The translations under genes were made by a program, and so were the position numbers. This document shows, one piece after another, positions 18,000 through 62,260 of a DNA stretch of 64,000 nt. Numbering within the stretch: position 1 is the stretch's first letter; every line of letters begins with the position of its first letter. Source of the DNA: Schmidtea nova (taxonomy: Eukaryota). Where the stretch lies: the NCBI GenBank assembly GCA_044892505.1, contig CM097883.1:45260001-45324000 (forward strand), given 5' to 3'. The notes under the pieces are model-generated. The model did not search any database, was not told the DNA's origin, and saw only the letters and a program-made list of their open reading frames with translations.

Positions 18000-18071
18000 A
18001 CATAATAGTTCGACTCAACCTTTATCAGGTGTGTATAAAAACACACACTTGATAAAGGCTGTGCCGAAATA
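18000..18071. ncRNA. Back-to-back pair of family A hammerhead motifs (minus copy degenerate; plus copy interrupted by Tigger)
   Basis: Minus copy 18032-18000; plus copy ACAC-TTGATAA-A-GGC(TGT)GCC-GAAA-TA at 18045-18071, then the Tigger TIR. Confidence 0.55.
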
Positions 18072-43641: not shown

Positions 43642-45000
43642 ATGGCAGAAGCTCAAGCAGTGCAAGAAATTGAAGATCCTGCTTATGAACATGGAAATGC
43701 AAGTTTGAATTTAACAAAATTAGATTCAGATATAATAGAGGATTCTGGTAAATGGCCAAATATACATAATAATATTTGTTGTTTTCTTATTCAGCATGAT
43801 CCAAAACATATCAAATTAGAGTCTGGTTATCCAAAAGATGAAAGTGGAAGACAATTTTCTAATTACTGTTATATACACAAACTGGCTAACGGAGAAACCT
43901 TAAAAAGGCCATGGTTAATGTATTCCACGCCAGTGCATAAGGTATATTGTTTTTGCTGCAAAGTACATAACAGGAGTAAATCCATCTTAATAGTTGTGAC
44001 TGGAAAAATATGTAATGTATATTACAACACCTTGAAAAATCACCCTAAATCATTTAAGCAGTTATCATGATTGAAAAGAAGTAAAATGAGGATTGCAAAT
44101 AATAAAACCATTGATGATCTGAACCAGCGCCTTCTAAATCGTCAAATAAAACACTGGAAGGATGTATTAGAAAGAATAATATCTTTGGTCAGAGTACATG
44201 GAGTTTAAAATTTACCCTTGAGAGAGCAGTCTGATCGGTTATATACGCCTCATAATGGTAACTTTTTGAAATTTGTTGAAGTTATTGCTGAATTTGATCC
44301 GATAATGAAAGAACATATAAAATGTATAAAATCAGATGAAATTCATGACCATTATTTAGGGGAAAATATTCAGAATGAGAATTTTTTAACTTTTGAGTAA
44401 AAAGGTAAAACAGGAAGTGATAAATAATTTAACAAATGCAAAAGATTACGCACACCAGACGTCAGCCATAAAGAACTGATGACAATGATTGTTAGATTTG
44501 TTACAGCAAATGAAGCAACTACTGATAAACCTTCAGAATATTTTATCGGATTCGAAGAAGTTGAAAATTCTACAGGTGCAAGTATGGTGGAGATTTTACT
44601 TAAAGAACTATCAAATTCAGGAATTTTTCAAGATGATATGAGGGGATAAGGCTATGATAATGGAACGAACATGCGGGGAATAAATAATGGTGTTAAAGAG
44701 TTAGAGAGTTAGAGAGCTAAATCGAAGAGTCTTTTTGTCCCGAGCAATTCAAATTCATTGAATTTGGTGGTTAATGATGCTATAAACTGTTGCTGTAAGT
44801 TACAGCCTGTAACTTTCTTTTGATTTAATTCAAAATATATATACTTTTTGTTTCTGCATCAACTCATCGCTGGAATGTATTGCTAGAGCATATCAAAAAC
44901 AAAGAAGCTGCAGGTTTAACTGTTAAAAGTTATGCGCAACACGTTGGGAAAGTCGAGTAAATGTTCTGAAGGTAATTCGATACCAAACATTTAGAAATAG
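43642..45000 (+). pseudogene. hAT transposase (ZMYM1-like), decayed
   Basis: RPWLMYS..KVYCFCCK, HNGNFLKFVE..AEFD, IQNE, GYDNGTNMRG, HSLNLVVNDA-like remnant, STHRW motifs with stops and frameshifts. Confidence 0.8.
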
Positions 45001-47942: not shown

Positions 47943-50083
47943 CAGTGGATTCCGGTTAATTGGGACACAACGGGACAGGAAAATTTATCCCAAATATACA
48001 GGTGTCCCAAATATACAAAATGTGTATCTTATAGCAAAAAATATATACAAAAAAATATTTAACAAAAAAAATATCATTAAAATAGCAACTGATATATTTA
48101 TAATTAACATACAATATTTAAAAAGGCTACATGAAAAATTTCCGAATATTTACTATTATAGCCGGCTTATATATTTATCCAGTGTACTTTGTCGTTTCTT
48201 TTTTAAAAACTTCAGATGAACAAAGTCAGAACATAAATCTAATGCGGGTAGCGGGCTTCCTTCATTTCCATTTTGCATAAAATAATGTCGTAACTTTTCA
48301 ATACACTCTGCAGCCTCGCTATTCCTCACACTAACAAATTCATCTTTTAACTCTCCATTATTCTCAGTTTTAAGAGGTGATTCTATTTCATCGTGAACAA
48401 TCATTTCCATGATATCATCTTCATAATTTTCGTTTTTATCATAACACTCAAGATTCTGATCAATATTCAAATATTCATCGCAGTTTTGGATGTTAAGTAA
48501 TGCGCTCATGTTACTTGGTTCTTCGACGTAGAATTGTGGAGCTTCAATTTCCGATTTTTTAAAACCACAATGGGAAAAACAATTCATTATCGTTTCCTTT
48601 TTAATATTTCGCCACCCTTGAGTTATGAAATGAATTGCCTGTAGAACATCAATCTTCGTACTAATTTCTTTTGCGCTTGTTGTGGAATTTATTAAATTTT
48701 TATCAATTATATCAAGTATGTGCATAATCAAATTTTCACGGTAGAACAACTTTAAATTCCGAATTATTCCCATATCTAGCGGTTGGATCAGAGACGTGGT
48801 ATTGGGTGGAAGGTACTCTAGCTTAATATTGGTCAAACAACCCAAGGATGGATGGGAAGTACAATTGTCCAATACCAACAGAATTTTCCTGTTGGAAATT
48901 TGCAGTTCCTTGTCCCAATCGATCAACCACTTCATAAAAATTGTCGATGTCATCCATGCTTTTTTGTTTGCGAAATATGAAACTGGTAAATTTTGAAGAT
49001 TTAAACCTTTAAAATATCGCGGGGATATACTCTTACCGATTATCAATAGTTTTTTCTTATCACAACCAATCATATTTACACAACACAATACAGTAATACG
49101 ATCCATCGCCTTTTTACAGCCAGAAATATGCGAAAATTCATAACAAAGAGAACCATCTGGGGTGGCCCTATACAAAACCCCGGTTTCATCTGCATTGTAT
49201 ATGTCAACGGGGTCGTATTGCTCTAAAATTTCAGGCAAACGATTAGATTTCCAATCTTCTGCCCCACATTTATCCACACTCTCTTTCTCCCCGTGCCTTT
49301 TCTTGTACTTTATTTTATGCTTTGCTTTCCATCGTGATAGCCAACCGTCCGTAGCAACAAAATTATCAAATCCCATTTTTTTAGCAAATTCTTCTGCCTT
49401 AGACTTCTGCCTTAGACTTCAACATATGACAATTTATGGAAATGCCTCTTGCCAGGATCAATGAAAACCATTGTTTGAGTGCATTTTCCACCTTTGGGTT
49501 TTTTCCTTTCCGATTTCTTTTCTTCAATTTCGAATGTTTCTTCGACAATATATTCCATTCGTCCATCAAATCGTCTTTGCTAGCAATTAAACGGCACATT
49601 GTAGATTTCGAAATACCGGCAATCACAGCAAGTTGCCGTATGCTTGTTGTTTTGGGTGTATCTTTTATCTTTTCAAGGATTTCGATCTTTTGCGCTAATG
49701 TCACATCCTTTCTTTTCATGTTGGGAGCTTTTAAAATATGATTATATTTTACGAACTTTATTATCAAATGTTAGTTTTTGTTATCTTTTATTTGATCAAT
49801 ACTTTTATTTAAATGTTATCTGTTAGCTATTGATTTTTTTAATTTAAATTTTTGTTAAACAACTTATGAGTATTTTTTTAACCCGCCAAAAGTTTTTATG
49901 TTTAAATTATCCATTCTATTATATACGCCCAAACAATCAATTGTCCCGTTTATACGGGATGCTGTCCCGTTTAAAATAATAAAATTAGAATGTATACTGC
50001 ATATTTGTTTCGGGACTTAAGAAAATGTCCCAATAAGACAGTTGTCCTAATTATACGGTGTCCCAATTAACCGAAATCCACTG
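47943..50083 (-). mobile_element. Complete Tigger/pogo transposon (TIGD-like), 2141 bp, frameshifted by a 13-bp tandem duplication
   Basis: TA TSDs; TIRs CAGTGGATTCCGGTTAATTGGGACAC / GTGTCCCAATTAACCGAAATCCACTG; HTH ORF 49767-49399 and DDE ORF 49376-48156 (YNADETG, LVLDNCTSH, QPLDMGII); CTTCTGCCTTAGA repeated at 49391-49416. Confidence 0.95.
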
Positions 50084-50882: not shown

Positions 50883-51000
50883 ATGTCTACGTCTAAATTC
50901 ACCAATTTTCTTGCCCAATATAAAGATAAAGAAACGAAGAAATTAAGAAATTTTACTGCTTCACAATTTGCAGAGGTTTGGAGTCACTACGATGCTGATG
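50883..51000 (+). CDS. First coding exon of a calbindin/calretinin/secretagogin-family EF-hand protein
   Basis: MSTSKFTNFLAQYKDKETKKLRNFTASQFAEVWSHYDADG resembles invertebrate calbindin N-termini (NF..QY.D.E...L...A.QF..VW.HYD.DG); GT donor at 51001 inside the first EF loop. Later exons not found (gaps or outside window). Confidence 0.75.
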
Positions 51001-52022
51001 GTATTATTTTGTTTTTATTAAATTTGTTGAAATTGACTTATTAATGGGAGCCTCATCTAAAATAATAATATAGAAATAAAAATATTATAGAAAAATAATT
51101 TATGGAAAATAGTTACTTTAATTTATTAAAAGCATTTTTACTTATTAGACATTTATTATAAAGTTCTAAAAGGACAATTTAATCTATTTTCCATTCCAAA
51201 TTTTTTGGATAATATTTTACAAATTACTTAAAATTTGAAAAGAATATTTTAATTTTTATGTTAATTTAATCTATTTTATATATTAAAATTTAAAATTTAA
51301 TCAGTTTTGCTGACTATCATTTAATCACTTAAATAACACATCTATTTAGAATTTGGATTGGAAATATAATCAAATTTTTAAAAAGGGAAAATATAGTTCT
51401 CAATAAATATTTTTAGTCGCATAAGAAGTGCATTATATCTGTGGTTGGGGGACGAATAATATTTAATATATACAATAATAATAATATATACAACAGAGCA
51501 TGACATGTTTATCTAAATTTTAAATTTTACAGTAATATCATCTTTATTTTCGTCATTATTTGTAATATTTATTTAGGAAAACTATTTTTGTACAGGTATC
51601 TGCATGAATTTTATATTTCAGTTGCGTCGGGAACGAGCAATTAAAATATAAAATGTAAATATAACGGTCGGCCATGTGTCACTCAAGCGTTTGAAAGATT
51701 TACAGTAAGTAGCGTTTGTCTCGGACACGATCAAGCACCTTAAATGGTTAATAAGTCATTGTATAAAGAACTAAAAGACTTTATTTATAAATTCAGCACT
51801 AGTTTTTTTAGAAAAGATCTTACATTTTATAAAAATCAAATGTATTTCTATTTTTTAATATTTTNNNNNNNNNNNNNNNNNNNNNNNNNNNNNNNNNNNN
51901 NNNNNNNNNNNNNNNNNNNNNNNNNNNNNNNNNNNNNNNNNNNNNNNNNNNNNNNNNNNNNNNNNNNNNNNNNNNNNNNNNNNNNNNNNNNNNNNNNNNN
52001 NNNNNNNNNNAATATATATTTT

Positions 52023-52063
52023 GCACAATATATTTCGAGAACTTAGTTCTCTTAATCAGGTGC
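52023..52063 (-). ncRNA. Hammerhead family B copy with G8U change
   Basis: GCAC-CTGATTA-A-GAGAAC(TAA)GTTCTC-GAAA-TATA-TT-GTGC. Confidence 0.65.
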
Positions 52064-52846
52064 TACCCAATCTTACATTCAAATCTAAATCAAATAAATC
52101 GATTTTTTCAAACAAATTAGTATTAATTTTTTTAAATAAAATATATATTTTAAATCTCATATTATATTCAAAATATTTAAATCGATTAAAATTTTTTAAT
52201 TTAAATAAATATTCTTAAAAATATAATATTCTTTTATTTTTATACAAAAAATATTTTTTTTAAGAATATTTTATAAATATTCCCATATTTATAAACAACA
52301 GAATGATTGAAAACGAAATCCATAATCCCCAATTAAAAATGCTCTAAAACTCGAGTACAGAAAAGACGGTCAGTCTTGTCCAAAGTATGTGGCATTACGC
52401 CCATGACATTGGAAAAATTAAACGAGTATAGAACACAAATCAAAAGAAAAAAATAAACACCACCAACAACCACATCAGGTAATTTACTTAAACACACGGA
52501 CTCAAACCTCTCACATTCACATATTCACAAACATCGACATGACTGAAAACAACGCTAAATCCCATTAATTGACTCCGCTCTGAAACTCGAATACAGAAAA
52601 TATATTGGAAAAGACCGTCTTATATGGGAATATTTATAATATATTCTTAAAAAAATATTTTTTTGTATAAAAATAAAAGAATATAATATTTTTAAGAATA
52701 ATTTATTTAAATTAAAAAATTTTAATCGATTTAAATTTTTTGACTATAATATGAGATTTAAAATATATATTTTATTTAAAAAATTAATACTAATTTGTTT
52801 GAAAAAATCGATTTATTTGATTTAGATTTGAATGTAAGATTGGGTA

Positions 52847-52887
52847 GCACCTGATGAAGAGAATGCGGTTCTCGAAATATATTGTGC
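52847..52887 (+). ncRNA. Minimal type-I hammerhead ribozyme, canonical core (family B), intact
   Basis: GCAC-CTGATGA-A-GAGAA(TGCGG)TTCTC-GAAA-TATA-TT-GTGC; predicted cleavage after 52883. Confidence 0.85.
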
Positions 52888-53858
52888 AAAATATATATTT
52901 GAATTGACGATTGTTTTTAATTATTTTAGTGCCANNNNNNNNNNNNNNNNNNNNNNNNNNNNNNNNNNNNNNNNNNNNNNNNNNNNNNNNNNNNNNNNNN
53001 NNNNNNNNNNNNNNNNNNNNNNNNNNNNNNNNNNNNNNNNNNNNNNNNNNNNNNNNNNNNNNNNNNNNNNNNNNNNNNNNNNNNNNNNNNNNNNNNNNNN
53101 NNNNNNNNNNNNNNNNNNNNNNNNNNNNNNNNNNNNNNNNNNNNNNNNNNNNNNNNNNNNNNNNNNNNNNNNNNNNNNNNNNNNNNNNNNNNNNNNNNNN
53201 NNNNNNNNNNNNNNNNNNNNNNNNNNNNNNNNNNNNNNNNNNNNNNNNNNNNNNNNNNNNNNNNNNNNNNNNNNNNNNNNNNNNNNNNNNNNNNNNNNNN
53301 NNNNNNNNNNNNNNNNNNNNNNNNNNNNNNNNNNNNNNNNNNNNNNNNNNNNNNNNNATAAAATGAAACTTACATTTTGCTCACTCACAAGGCATTGCAC
53401 CAGAACATAATATCTAATTAAACAAACCCCCGATGTGCTTGTTGGCAAACCTTAATTGTTGATATTGTTTTTCTTTGAATTGAGAGACTTTTTACCCAAT
53501 TTTGAAAAGTTATTATCAAGAAAGATCATTTCTTTTTATTAGCATTTTTTGTTTAGTGTTGCTGAGCGGAAAAGAGTGAAGCGCAAAAGAAAACGTTCCT
53601 TTTGTAATAAATATGATTTTCAGTTGTATTTTAGTTTTCTTTATTGTAGACAAAGAATTAAATTAGGAAAAAAAGTGTTTTGTTACATTTTAATTTTTTC
53701 GTTATATTTTTGAAAATCAAAATACTATTTTCTCAATTTGTGCTACCGGCCTCGATGCGGTCCAAGACATTACTATTATTGTTATTTGAAATGTAGACGT
53801 TATAATTTATTTTCATTTTCATTTCAATATAAATTTTTAATAATAAAAAATACAAAAA

Positions 53859-58639: not shown

Positions 58640-59410
58640 ATGTGTGGAGTCAAACACAAAGAAATGAGTCATAATGCGTGGGCGTAAAAATTCAAACAAA
58701 GACTTTTTAGTTACCGAGCCCCCCCCCCGGGAGGGGGGGGGGGGGGGTTCGCGCCAAATTTTTTTTTCCCGCCAAAAATTTTTTTTTCAAATTTTTTTTT
58801 CGCGCCAAAAATTTTTTTCAAATTTTTTTTTTCGCGCCAAAAATTTTTTTTCAAATTTTTTTTTCGCGCCAAAATTTTTTTTCAAATTTTTTTTTCGCGC
58901 CAAAATTTTTTTTTTTTAATTTTTTTTTGCTCCAAAATTTTTTTTTTCAAAATTTTTTTTCAACACAAATTTTTTTAACCCAAATTTTTTTTTCACACAT
59001 TTTTTTAAACAAATTTTTTTAACACAAATTTTTTTTTAACACATTTTTTTAACACAAATTTTTTAACACAAATTTTTTTTAACACATTTTTTTTGACACA
59101 AATTTTTTTTAACACAAATTTTTTTTTTAACACAAATTTTTTTTTAACAAATTTTTTTTTTAACACAAATATGAGTCATCGAAAACTTTGCAACACGTGT
59201 GGAGTCAAACACAAAGAAATGAGTCATAATGCGTGGGCGTAAAAATTCAAACAAAGACTTTTTAGTTACCGAGCCCCCCCCCGGGGGGAAGGGGGGGTTC
59301 GCTCCAAATTTTTTTTTTTCAAATTTTTTTTTCGCGCCAAAAATTTTTTTTCAAATTTTTTTTCGCGCCAAAAATTTTTTTTTCAAATTTTTTTTTTCGC
59401 GCCAAAAATT
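58640..59410 (+). promoter_or_regulatory. Duplicated module: AP-1 site, EGR site, C-run/G-run hairpin and tandem E2F-site array
   Basis: ATGAGTCAT at 58664, 59171, 59219; GCGTGGGCG at 58676, 59231; hairpins 58715-58751 and 59270-59301; TTTCGCGCCAAA x7 and TTTCCCGCCAAA x1. Confidence 0.5.
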
Positions 59411-59589
59411 TTTTTTTCAAATTTTTTTTTTTCAAAATTTTTTTGACAAATTTTTTTATTAGACAAATTTTTTATTTTTTACAAAATTTTTTTAATTTAA
59501 GACAATTTTTTCTTTTTAGACAAATTTTTTATTTTTACAAAAATTTTTTAATTTAAGACAAATTTTTTATTACACAAAATTAGAGTAAT

Positions 59590-61479
59590 CAAAAATATTT
59601 GCAACAGGTGTGCAAACTAAACAAAGACATTGTTGTATGTGTGCATGTTGAATTAATTATTATTTGTCAAGTATGAAGCTTTTGCACATCAAAACCATCA
59701 CAGAAGAGGTTCTGCTTCCAGGGTTCTGATCGCAATGTTCTGCTTCCAGGGTTCTGATCGCAATGTTCTGCTTCCAGGGTTCTGATCGCAATGTTCTGCT
59801 ACTAATATTGTTATTTATTCATTTAATTATTATTATTATTATTATTATTATCTTTCAAACTATACAAAGACTTTGCAACACGCGTGCAAGTTAACAAAGA
59901 CATTGCAACACACGTGCAAGGACTTTGCAACACGCGAGCAACATGAACAAAGACATTGATACACGCGTGCAACATGAACAAAGACATTGCAATACACATG
60001 CAAACTAAACAAGGACAAAACTAAACAAAGACATTGCAAGTTAACAAGGACTTTGCAATACACATGCAACATTAACAAAGACATTGCAATCTACATGCAA
60101 CGTAAACAAAGACAATTCATTGCCAAATTTCATAACAAAGACATTTCAATGCCAAAAACTAAACAAAGACAATTCATTGCCAAATTTCATAACAAAGACA
60201 ATTCATTGCCAAATTTCATAACAAAGACAATTCATTGCCAAATTTCATAACAAAGACATTTCAATGCCATAAAAACTAAACAAAGACATTTCAATGCCAA
60301 AAAAAAAAACTAAACAAAGACATTTCAATGCCAAATTTCATAACAAAGACATTTCAATGCCAAATTTCATAACAAAGACATTTCAAAGCCAAAAACTAAA
60401 CAAAGACATTTCCTTGCCAAATTTCATAACAAAGACAATTCATTGCCAAATTTCATAACAAGGACAATTCATTGCCAAATTTCATAACAAAGACATTTCA
60501 ATACCAAAACATCTAAACAAAGACATTTCCTTGCCAAATTTCATAACAAAGACAATTCATTGCCAAATTTCATAACAAAGACAATTCATTGCCAAATTTC
60601 ATAACAAAGACATTTCAATGCCAAAACATCTAAACAAAGACATTTCATTACCAAATTTCATAACAAAGACATTTCAATGCCAAGAAACTAAACAAAGACA
60701 TATCAATACCAAAATAACTAAACAGAGACACGAACATTTACTAGCAGAACATTTACTATCAGAACATCTTTTGTGATGGTTTTTATCTGCCAAAGCTTAT
60801 TACTCGAACATTAATTACAATTCAACTTCATTCAGCATCATTTGATAAAACAAAGACATATCATTGTCAAAACACCTTAACAAAGACATTACAGTACCCA
60901 TGCAGTGNNNNNNNNNNNNNNNNNNNNNNNNNNNNNNNNNNNNNNNNNNNNNNNNNNNNNNNNNNNNNNNNNNNNNNNNNNNNNNNNNNNNNNNNNNNNN
61001 NNNNNNNNNNNNNNNNNNNNNNNNNNNNNNNNNNNNNNNNNNNNNNNNNAAAGTAATGTNNNNNNNNNNNNNNNNNNNNNNNNNNNNNNNNNNNNNNNNN
61101 NNNNNNNNNNNNNNNNNNNNNNNNNNNNNNNNNNNNNNNNNNNNNNNNNNNNNNNNNNNNNNNNNNNNNNNNNNNNNNNNNNNNNNNNNNNNNNNNNNNN
61201 NNNNNNNNNNNNNNNNNNNNNNNNNNNNNNNNNNNNNNNNNNNNNNNNNNNNNNNNNNNNNNNNNNNNNNNNNNNNNNNNNNNNNNNNNNNNNNNNNNNN
61301 NNNNNNNNNNNNNNNNNNNNNNNNNNNNNNNNNNNNNNNNNNNNNNNNNNNNNNNNNNNNNNNNNNNNNNNNNNNNNNNAGGATTCAAAAGTTTTTAAAC
61401 AAAGACATTGTAATGCCAAAACATCTTAACAAAGATATTGCAATACAGATACTGGTTAACAAAGACACACATGTAAGTT

Positions 61480-61521
<42 letters not shown>

Positions 61522-62260
61522 CCCATTTTGACACTGCAATCCATGTGCAAAATTAACAAAGACATTGCAGTACTGGTGCAAGTTAACAAAATCATTGCAA
61601 GCTACAATTACAAAGACATATCTTTAATCGAAATAATAATAAAAATAGTAATAATAATTTAAAAAAAAAAAAATTCAAGGTTTCAAAACTTTTAAAAATA
61701 TGTATGTATGTGTATATTTTCAAACCTTCAAGATGTCAAAATAAAATAATTAAACTACCACAACGTAATATATATTAATTTTCCTACCCATTTTGACGCT
61801 GCAATTCATGTGCAAGTTAACAAAGACATTGCAATGCAGATGCAAGTTAACAAAGACATTGCAATACAGATGCAAGTTAACAAAGACATTGCAATACAGA
61901 TGCAAGTTAACAAAGACATTGCAATGTGGATACAAGTTAACAAAGACATACATGCAAGTTAATAAAAAATATTCAAAAATATTCAAAAATATTCAAGGGT
62001 TAAAATTTTTTTTAAAACTATATAAATATCATGCGAAAGATATTTGAGATGTGTGTATGTGTGTATTTTCAAACCTTCAAGATGTCAAAATAAAATAATT
62101 AAACTACCACAACGTAATATATATATTTATTTTCCTACCCATTTTGACGCTGCAATTCATGTGCAATATTAACAAAGACATTGCAAAGACATTGAAAAAC
62201 AGATGCAAGTTAACAAAGACATTGCAGTTGCAAGCCAAGTTAACAAAGACAAGATGTCAA
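59590..62260 (+). repeat. Composite minisatellite region with AACAAAGACATT core (28-, 29- and 30-bp units) and a duplicated 125-bp block
   Basis: 28-bp unit x3 at 59709-59792; 29-bp AAATTTCATAACAAAGACAATTCATTGCC array at about 60110-60690; 30-bp GCAAGTTAACAAAGACATTGCAATACAGAT array at about 61810-61950; block at about 61700-61815 repeated at about 62050-62170. Confidence 0.9.

What the first reader, a model, noticed from the sequence alone, without database searches (positions are those of the whole stretch)
52011..52900. Foldback element capped by outward-facing hammerheads, just downstream of a calbindin exon
Inverted arms of about 280 bp each end about 12 nt after an HHR. The plus-strand copy (52847-52887) has a fully canonical core, a 5-bp stem II and an AUAUAU palindromic stem III. 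The minus copy has G8U and a different stem II loop with the stem maintained (GAGAAC/GTTCTC). Inverted pseudo-LTRs are known for PLEs, so this is probably a non-autonomous PLE derivative. The intact ribozyme is in the sense orientation of the calbindin-like gene and, if that intron extends this far, would lie in its pre-mRNA (inference: co-transcriptional cleavage or dsRNA formation could affect expression).
Basis: partly seen in the sequence, partly recalled or inferred. Interest (0 to 1): 0.7.

Follow-up and report, generated by a model that had tools for sequence, protein, structure and literature searches.

The report
Head-to-head mini-Penelope insertion in calbindin intron
This is one of thousands of copies of a small jumping RNA element that often lands as two back-to-back pieces; it sits in a calbindin intron, where its self-cutting RNA motif is predicted to be locked in a long hairpin and likely does nothing.

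Summary
The arms (267/280 identical) and both hammerheads are real, but this is not a foldback unit capped by ribozymes. It is two 5'-truncated copies of a ~960-nt tandem, non-autonomous Penelope-like element (PLE), joined head to head. The genome holds 6,755 exact ribozyme cores; 43 of 78 sampled insertions have this outward geometry, each with a different junction, none the inward one. Family copies end 45 or 72 nt past the cut site (the PLE 'tail'), as do copies of an intact 903-aa RT/GIY-YIG PLE in the same genome that shares the ribozyme and two endonuclease remnants. Calbindin exon 2 lies 31 kb downstream, so the insertion is intronic, but the sense ribozyme lacks helix III and is predicted to be fully paired to the upstream antisense arm. 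Opposite-strand hammerhead pairs were published in 2014. The locus is ordinary. The family is odder: it keeps a ~250-codon frame open from the AUG in the ribozyme core with dN/dS near 1, and a duplicated ~175-nt hairpin held by compensatory changes. The scan noted this family and its long frame before, on other DNA (e1-9872085).

The parts
50883..51000 (+). Coding part of calbindin-like exon 1; phase-1 GT donor at 51001; intron 1 runs ~31 kb to exon 2 at window-equivalent 81980 (outside the window)
52011..52600 (-). 5'-truncated copy of the ~960-nt mini-PLE (family positions -592 to at least +16 relative to the cut site); its 3' end is not readable in the window
52023..52063 (-). Minimal type I hammerhead with G8U at 52054 (loses the catalytic G8 and the AUG); a rare variant (20 against 6,755 copies)
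52303..52462 (-). Second internal duplicate of the family's ~175-nt rod hairpin, built around a decayed GIY-YIG endonuclease remnant (remnant about 52339-52444)
52600..52620 (+). 21-nt junction filler matching family sense positions -616 to -596 (18 of 21), a likely template-switch scar
52622..52934 (+). Second 5'-truncated copy (family positions -261 to at least +51); passes +45, so likely the long-tailed arm; its 3' end is not readable in the window
52847..52887 (+). Minimal type I hammerhead with intact core; predicted cut 52883/52884; in sense to calbindin pre-mRNA; predicted fully paired with the left arm
52884..52934 (+). Sequence 3' of the cut site, including the start of the PLE tail

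Best explanation
The locus is two 5'-truncated, back-to-back copies of a ~960-nt Penelope-derived repeat in calbindin intron 1, likely written in one retrotransposition event by a helper Penelope enzyme, and its sense ribozyme is predicted to be trapped in a 280-bp hairpin, so likely silent. Shown: family membership, copy number, geometry, two tail ends, endonuclease remnants, intronic position. Inferred: tandem arrays are transcribed; a helper RT/GIY-YIG protein nicks AT-rich DNA on both strands and starts reverse transcription at two sites 45 and 72 nt past the ribozyme cut, on RNA that is not cut there; the two incomplete cDNAs (or one cDNA and a fold-back switch) meet at their 5' ends. In the pre-mRNA the antisense arm is made first and would capture the ribozyme as it emerges; the likely product is intronic dsRNA, a bystander.
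For: 6,755 exact cores, control 0. Among 75 loci around the first 100 listed matches: 43 of 78 clusters outward-inverted, 35 single-orientation, 0 inward; 28 of 29 two-tailed pairs have one long (+64 to +78) and one short (+37 to +45) end. 43 of 43 junctions differ. Both arms share 3 substitutions absent or rare in 29 other copies. Intact 2,698-bp PLE (903-aa frame; RVT_1 over cut-off, GIY-YIG E 0.003) shares two ~100-nt blocks (79%, 77%) and ribozyme plus tail (70% over 115 nt); its copies end at +47 (6) or +67 to +76 (7). Ribozyme/antisense duplex -58 kcal/mol against about -8 for the monomer; stem probabilities below 1e-9 in every nascent prefix. PMC11167929: both strands cut and extended, two internal start sites define the tail, uncleaved RNA is the substrate. 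PMC4209133: single minimal ribozymes showed no cleavage; opposite-strand pairs 100-700 bp apart already seen.
Against: This insertion's own ends and target duplication could not be read. The helper is only 70-79% alike and its N-terminal protein similarity is not significant (103 of 1000 shuffles as good), so it may be a sister, not the mobilising family; its GIY-YIG score is below Pfam's cut-off. Folding is equilibrium prediction; with the left arm removed, stems II and I form at 0.67 and 0.50, so helicases or editing could free the motif. The locus sample is the first 27 Mb of one contig, chosen for an intact core.
Confidence: 0.86

Rival explanations
1. The intact sense ribozyme cuts calbindin pre-mRNA during transcription and tunes expression.
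For: Intact core in sense within intron 1; stems can form when the left arm is absent; an intronic ribozyme affecting its host gene is reported for CPEB3 (PMC10919898, search listing only).
Against: Predicted fully sequestered; no helix III as a monomer and the partner motif is on the other strand and G8U; single minimal motifs inactive in vitro (PMC4209133) or active only with the PLE protein (PMC11167929); a 31-kb stretch holds an intact core with probability 0.15 by chance; three private loop changes suggest drift.
Confidence: 0.05
2. A fixed foldback or MITE-like unit that transposes whole through its inverted arms.
For: 280-bp inverted arms at 95% identity.
Against: All 43 sampled junctions differ; arms are ordinary 3' parts of a tandem unit; the spacer is the same family; ends are asymmetric.
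Confidence: 0.02
3. The intronic hairpin, not the ribozyme, affects calbindin: dsRNA is edited or diced and lowers or alters transcription or splicing.
For: Predicted 280-bp near-perfect duplex, -375 kcal/mol; Penelope copies give small RNAs in a rotifer (PMC3846280 passages).
Against: 1 kb from the donor and 29 kb from the acceptor; over half of sampled insertions form such hairpins, with a second small pair in intron 3 of the same gene, so they seem tolerated.
Confidence: 0.12

Closest known systems
Endonuclease-positive PLE insertions with inverted pLTR and tail (PMC3846280, PMC8557442, PMC11167929)
   Same: 5'-truncated copies, partial tandems, an inverted copy adjoining the 5' end, head-to-head bias, ~30-nt tail at one end only, AT-rich and microsatellite targets, frame starting in the ribozyme.
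   Different: No RT; only two broken endonuclease remnants; 960-nt unit.
Minimal hammerheads of metazoan PLEs (Cervera and de la Pena 2014, PMC4209133)
   Same: Extra nucleotide between 9 and 10.1, G10.1-C11.1, short helix I, long helix II, palindromic helix III; dual motifs on opposite strands a few hundred bp apart were reported there.
   Different: Nothing material; spacing here is about 790 bp.
Animal non-LTR retrozymes (PMC7229834; bioRxiv 10.64898/2026.07.22.740005)
   Same: Non-autonomous, low GC, tandem units with one type I hammerhead each (up to 22 units), self-paired RNA, proposed PLE mobilisation.
   Different: Unit ~960 nt against 170-400 nt; minimal rather than canonical ribozyme; recognisable PLE coding remnants; a long open frame, where retrozymes are described as non-coding.

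Membership tests
PLE minimal hammerhead | Conserved core CUGANGA...GAAA...UH | tested here: met
   Plus copy intact; minus copy fails at G8
PLE minimal hammerhead | Unpaired base 5' of stem II, G10.1-C11.1, palindromic helix III, 4-5 bp helix I | tested here: met
   stem II covaries with the helper's at 3 pairs
PLE minimal hammerhead | Self-cleavage (as dimer or protein-assisted) | not testable with these tools
   needs in vitro assay
Penelope-like element (EN+) | Tandem units and inverted 5'-truncated copy at the 5' end | tested here: met
Penelope-like element (EN+) | 30-40 bp tail at one end only | tested here: met
   family level: 28 of 29 pairs, modal ends +45 and +72; at this locus only the right arm is seen to pass +45
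Penelope-like element (EN+) | Target-site duplication in AT-rich DNA | tested here: inconclusive
   several clear 12-17 nt duplications in other copies, many uninformative microsatellite targets; flanks of this copy unreadable
Penelope-like element (EN+), autonomous | Single RT plus GIY-YIG frame | tested here: not met
   only two half-out-of-frame endonuclease remnants
Non-LTR retrozyme | Tandem repeats with a type I hammerhead in each unit | tested here: met
   family level; this locus holds no whole unit
Non-LTR retrozyme | 170-400 nt unit with canonical hammerhead | tested here: not met
   938-975 nt in 21 monomers; minimal motif
Non-LTR retrozyme | No protein-coding frame | tested here: not met
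   frame of 268-296 codons in 8 of 21 monomers; translation itself untested
Non-LTR retrozyme | Expressed as linear and circular monomer RNA | not testable with these tools
   no RNA holder listed
Foldback / MITE DNA transposon | Fixed terminal inverted repeats shared by all copies | tested here: not met
   43 of 43 junctions differ; asymmetric ends
Domesticated intronic ribozyme (CPEB3 or amniote type; label recalled) | Single or low copy | tested here: not met
   6,755 copies
Domesticated intronic ribozyme (CPEB3 or amniote type; label recalled) | Conserved at the orthologous site in other species | not testable with these tools
   no related genomes held

The most novel reading that the evidence does not exclude
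The parent family is a new sort of mini-Penelope with two selected cis-features: a duplicated RNA rod hairpin lifted from the helper's endonuclease-coding region, acting as the signal that recruits the helper enzyme, and a dummy ~250-codon frame from the AUG inside the ribozyme core that is kept open for the act of translation, not for its protein, so that ribozyme cleavage and translation are mutually exclusive states of the RNA.
Probability: 0.3. Interest if true: 0.62.

Novelty: new variant of a known kind. Interest (0 to 1): 0.33.

Why it matters
The locus itself does not: it is one of thousands of such insertions and the geometry is in print. The family may: what a PLE protein recognises in its RNA, and why PLEs carry weak ribozymes, are open questions. 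A 960-nt element with a kept hairpin, a kept open frame and a young intact helper in the same genome is a compact test system for both, and the two fixed tail ends give in-genome support for the two-start-site model shown in vitro for an anole PLE.

Tried and rejected
Rfam scan: no hammerhead hit. Homologue searches: exon-1 peptide against longer proteins, none; mini-frame protein at near lengths, none of 539 candidates; its residues 1-125 against longer proteins, none of 59; weak evidence only. Protein atlas: no answer obtainable. Sequencing runs: no RNA holder listed; the laid contigs ran unspliced across calbindin intron 2, so no RNA test was possible. The 856-aa RT/GIY-YIG family found first showed no hammerhead in my motif scan and no clear match to the monomer; rejected as helper. 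A close autonomous parent was not among the 150 best of 12,947 candidates (the 471-codon frame is microsatellite read-through). Membrane-protein reading of the mini frame: hydropathy peaks only 1.8-1.9 and follow from T-rich codons. An apparent shared stop was an artefact of the reference copy, removed. A second truncation hotspot at -337 was not significant (6 of 45, P 0.18). Sliding 150-nt folding windows mostly missed the hairpins, which are longer than the window. Earlier-findings look-ups by sequence and by words returned nothing. No supplements were read.

Full report
Observation. The arms 52011-52288 and 52622-52899 align at 267 of 280 columns. The plus ribozyme has stem I of 4 bp, CUGAUGA, one extra A, a stem II of five Watson-Crick pairs plus U-G, GAAA, an AUAUAU palindrome and a predicted cut at 52883/52884; the minus copy has G8U. 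Rfam does not detect it.

The family. Window is G000:C2:45260001-45324000 in a 1.25-Gb genome. The core pattern occurs 6,755 times, the reversed control 0; the G8U variant 20 times, including this one. Among the first 100 listed matches, neighbours within 2 kb are 17 outward pairs (82-1,796 bp apart), 8 same-strand pairs (seven at 952-964 bp) and no inward pair. Twenty-one distinct ribozyme-to-ribozyme monomers measure 938-975 nt; arrays reach 22 units. Mapping one natural unit on 75 loci around those 100 matches gave 78 ribozyme-bearing clusters: 43 outward-inverted, 35 single-orientation, none inward; 2 loci gave no alignment. All 43 junctions differ. Of 29 pairs with both 3' ends, 28 have one long and one short end; modes are +72 and +45 from the cut. 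Targets are AT-rich or (ATT)n, with some clear 12-17 nt duplications. The window locus is a minus copy from -592, a 21-nt filler matching -616 to -596, and a plus copy from -261. Both arms share three substitutions absent or rare in 29 other copies, which points to one template. 5' ends cluster near -592 (8 of 22 within 100 nt fall within 8 nt, P 0.0003).

Penelope origin. A GIY-YIG search led to a neighbouring element whose sequence resembled the monomer. It is a young family with a 2,698-bp tandem unit and a 903-aa stop-to-stop frame; RVT_1 scores over Pfam's cut-off, GIY-YIG under it at E 0.003; a motif from its endonuclease region occurs 2,533 times. The monomer shares with it two ~100-nt endonuclease blocks (79% and 77%, E 2e-19 and 5e-19) and the ribozyme plus tail (70% over 115 nt). 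One remnant lies in the window's minus copy. Its stem II covaries with ours around the same UAA loop, and its copies end at +47 (6) or +67 to +76 (7) in 30 loci. Protein similarity of the N-termini is not significant, so it is a candidate helper or sister, not a proven parent. Its clade was not tested.

Host gene. Exon 1 (50883-51000) matches calbindin and secretagogin and residues 1-35 of a 290-aa homologue. A pattern from a recalled EF-hand motif gave two genomic hits; one, on the same strand at window-equivalent 81980, has an AG acceptor in the right phase and continues with residues 35-59, followed by exon 3; the other is a paralogue on another contig. No credible exon 2 lies in the readable window. 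A stretch of that length holds an intact core with probability 0.15, and intron 3 holds another small outward pair of the family.

Would it cut? Likely not. The antisense arm is transcribed first; the whole insert folds at -375 kcal/mol, the ribozyme-antisense duplex is -58 against about -8 for the monomer, and stems I and II have probabilities below 1e-9 in each nascent prefix tested. Without the left arm they form at 0.50 and 0.67. PMC4209133 (parts 1-2 of 4 read) found no cleavage by a single minimal motif, low cleavage by dimers, and dual motifs 100-700 bp apart on opposite strands. PMC11167929 (parts 1-2 of 4) found cleavage only with the PLE protein, extension on both strands, two internal start sites bounding the tail, and uncleaved RNA as substrate. 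PMC3846280 and PMC8557442 (passages) describe the inverted copy, head-to-head bias and one-sided tail. The mechanism of insertion is inferred from these plus the family statistics. No RNA data were available.

What is unusual is the family. (a) A frame opens at the AUG formed by A6-U7-G8 of the core and runs 268-296 codons in 8 of 21 monomers. It has 0 stops in 260 codons against 18 expected (minimum 6 in 2,000 shuffles); the longest frame in 1,000 shuffled monomers was 134-153 codons. Amino acids are not conserved: dN/dS 0.84 between the two 255-nt internal duplicates, and non-synonymous to synonymous ratios at the neutral value in all frequency classes. Of 68 substitutions seen in six or more of 281 sequences none is a stop (P 0.02) and no frameshift is shared, but that set includes loci picked by a protein search. 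In the unbiased set (112 sequences) 0 of 37 common substitutions are stops and 0 frameshifts are common, against 17 of 297 and 38 among singletons; the stop count alone is not significant. Extrapolating from the duplicates' divergence, about 99 substitutions and 22 frameshifts were expected since the duplication (P of no stop 0.003), under strong assumptions. (b) The monomer folds at z -6.9 (20 shuffles). Each duplicate forms a ~175-nt rod (z -3.4 to -4.3); on a gap-free alignment of five sequences all 261 cells of 54 pairs pair, 9 pairs change on both sides, and slid controls pair 37-50%. The structure was derived from four of these sequences and the signal is essentially one comparison, duplicate 1 against 2. 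The inner helices are also compatible with the helper's coding RNA (its own z only -1.8). The hairpin could explain the lack of indels, so selection on the frame is likely but not isolated. No homologue of the protein was found.

Comparison and novelty. It works like an endonuclease-positive PLE insertion and like a large retrozyme; it fails autonomous-PLE membership (no RT) and the retrozyme size, canonical-ribozyme and non-coding criteria (PMC7229834, part 1 of 6 and passages; bioRxiv 10.64898/2026.07.22.740005, part 1 of 5 and passages). Searches listed no paper on a non-autonomous PLE with a kept frame or an endonuclease-derived hairpin; I judged from listings, and the library is partial. 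PMC13725137 (passages) links hammerheads to translation initiation in fungal viruses, a lead only. Earlier scan notes describe the same 964-nt family with its long frame on other DNA and call the host a planarian; I did not test the host. Verdict: locus ordinary, family a new variant of a known kind; interest 0.33.

Noticed in passing
window 5065-5949 and 6193-6354: Two more outward-facing inverted pairs from a different, very short family with a U3-A8 covariant minimal hammerhead (the variant of PMC4209133); the second is what Rfam mis-scores as a microRNA hairpin. Solo remnants near 18049, 33631, 36262, 56715.
   Followed up: partly
L032:2247-2410 (calbindin intron 3): A ~160-bp outward pair of the same 960-nt family in the same gene.
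   Followed up: partly
L133; G000:C1:4.73-4.74 Mb and many others: Young intact PLE (2,698-bp unit, 903-aa frame) in near-identical tandem arrays, often with outward inverted copies; frame starts in its ribozyme.
   Followed up: partly
L083-L101: A second intact RT/GIY-YIG PLE family (856-aa frame, 3,135-bp unit) with no hammerhead found by my scan.
   Followed up: partly
G000:C2:44263673-44265026: Three G8U ribozyme copies in tandem at 660-bp spacing: a catalytically dead, AUG-less variant that was nevertheless multiplied.
   Followed up: no
L031 (G000:C1:480271547): Exon of a second calbindin-like paralogue.
   Followed up: no
window 48150-49720 (minus) and 44000-44960: By eye, decayed DNA-transposon-like reading frames upstream of calbindin exon 1; labels would be recalled, not tested.
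   Followed up: no
window 58720-62250: Long irregular tandem repeats inside calbindin intron 1.
   Followed up: no
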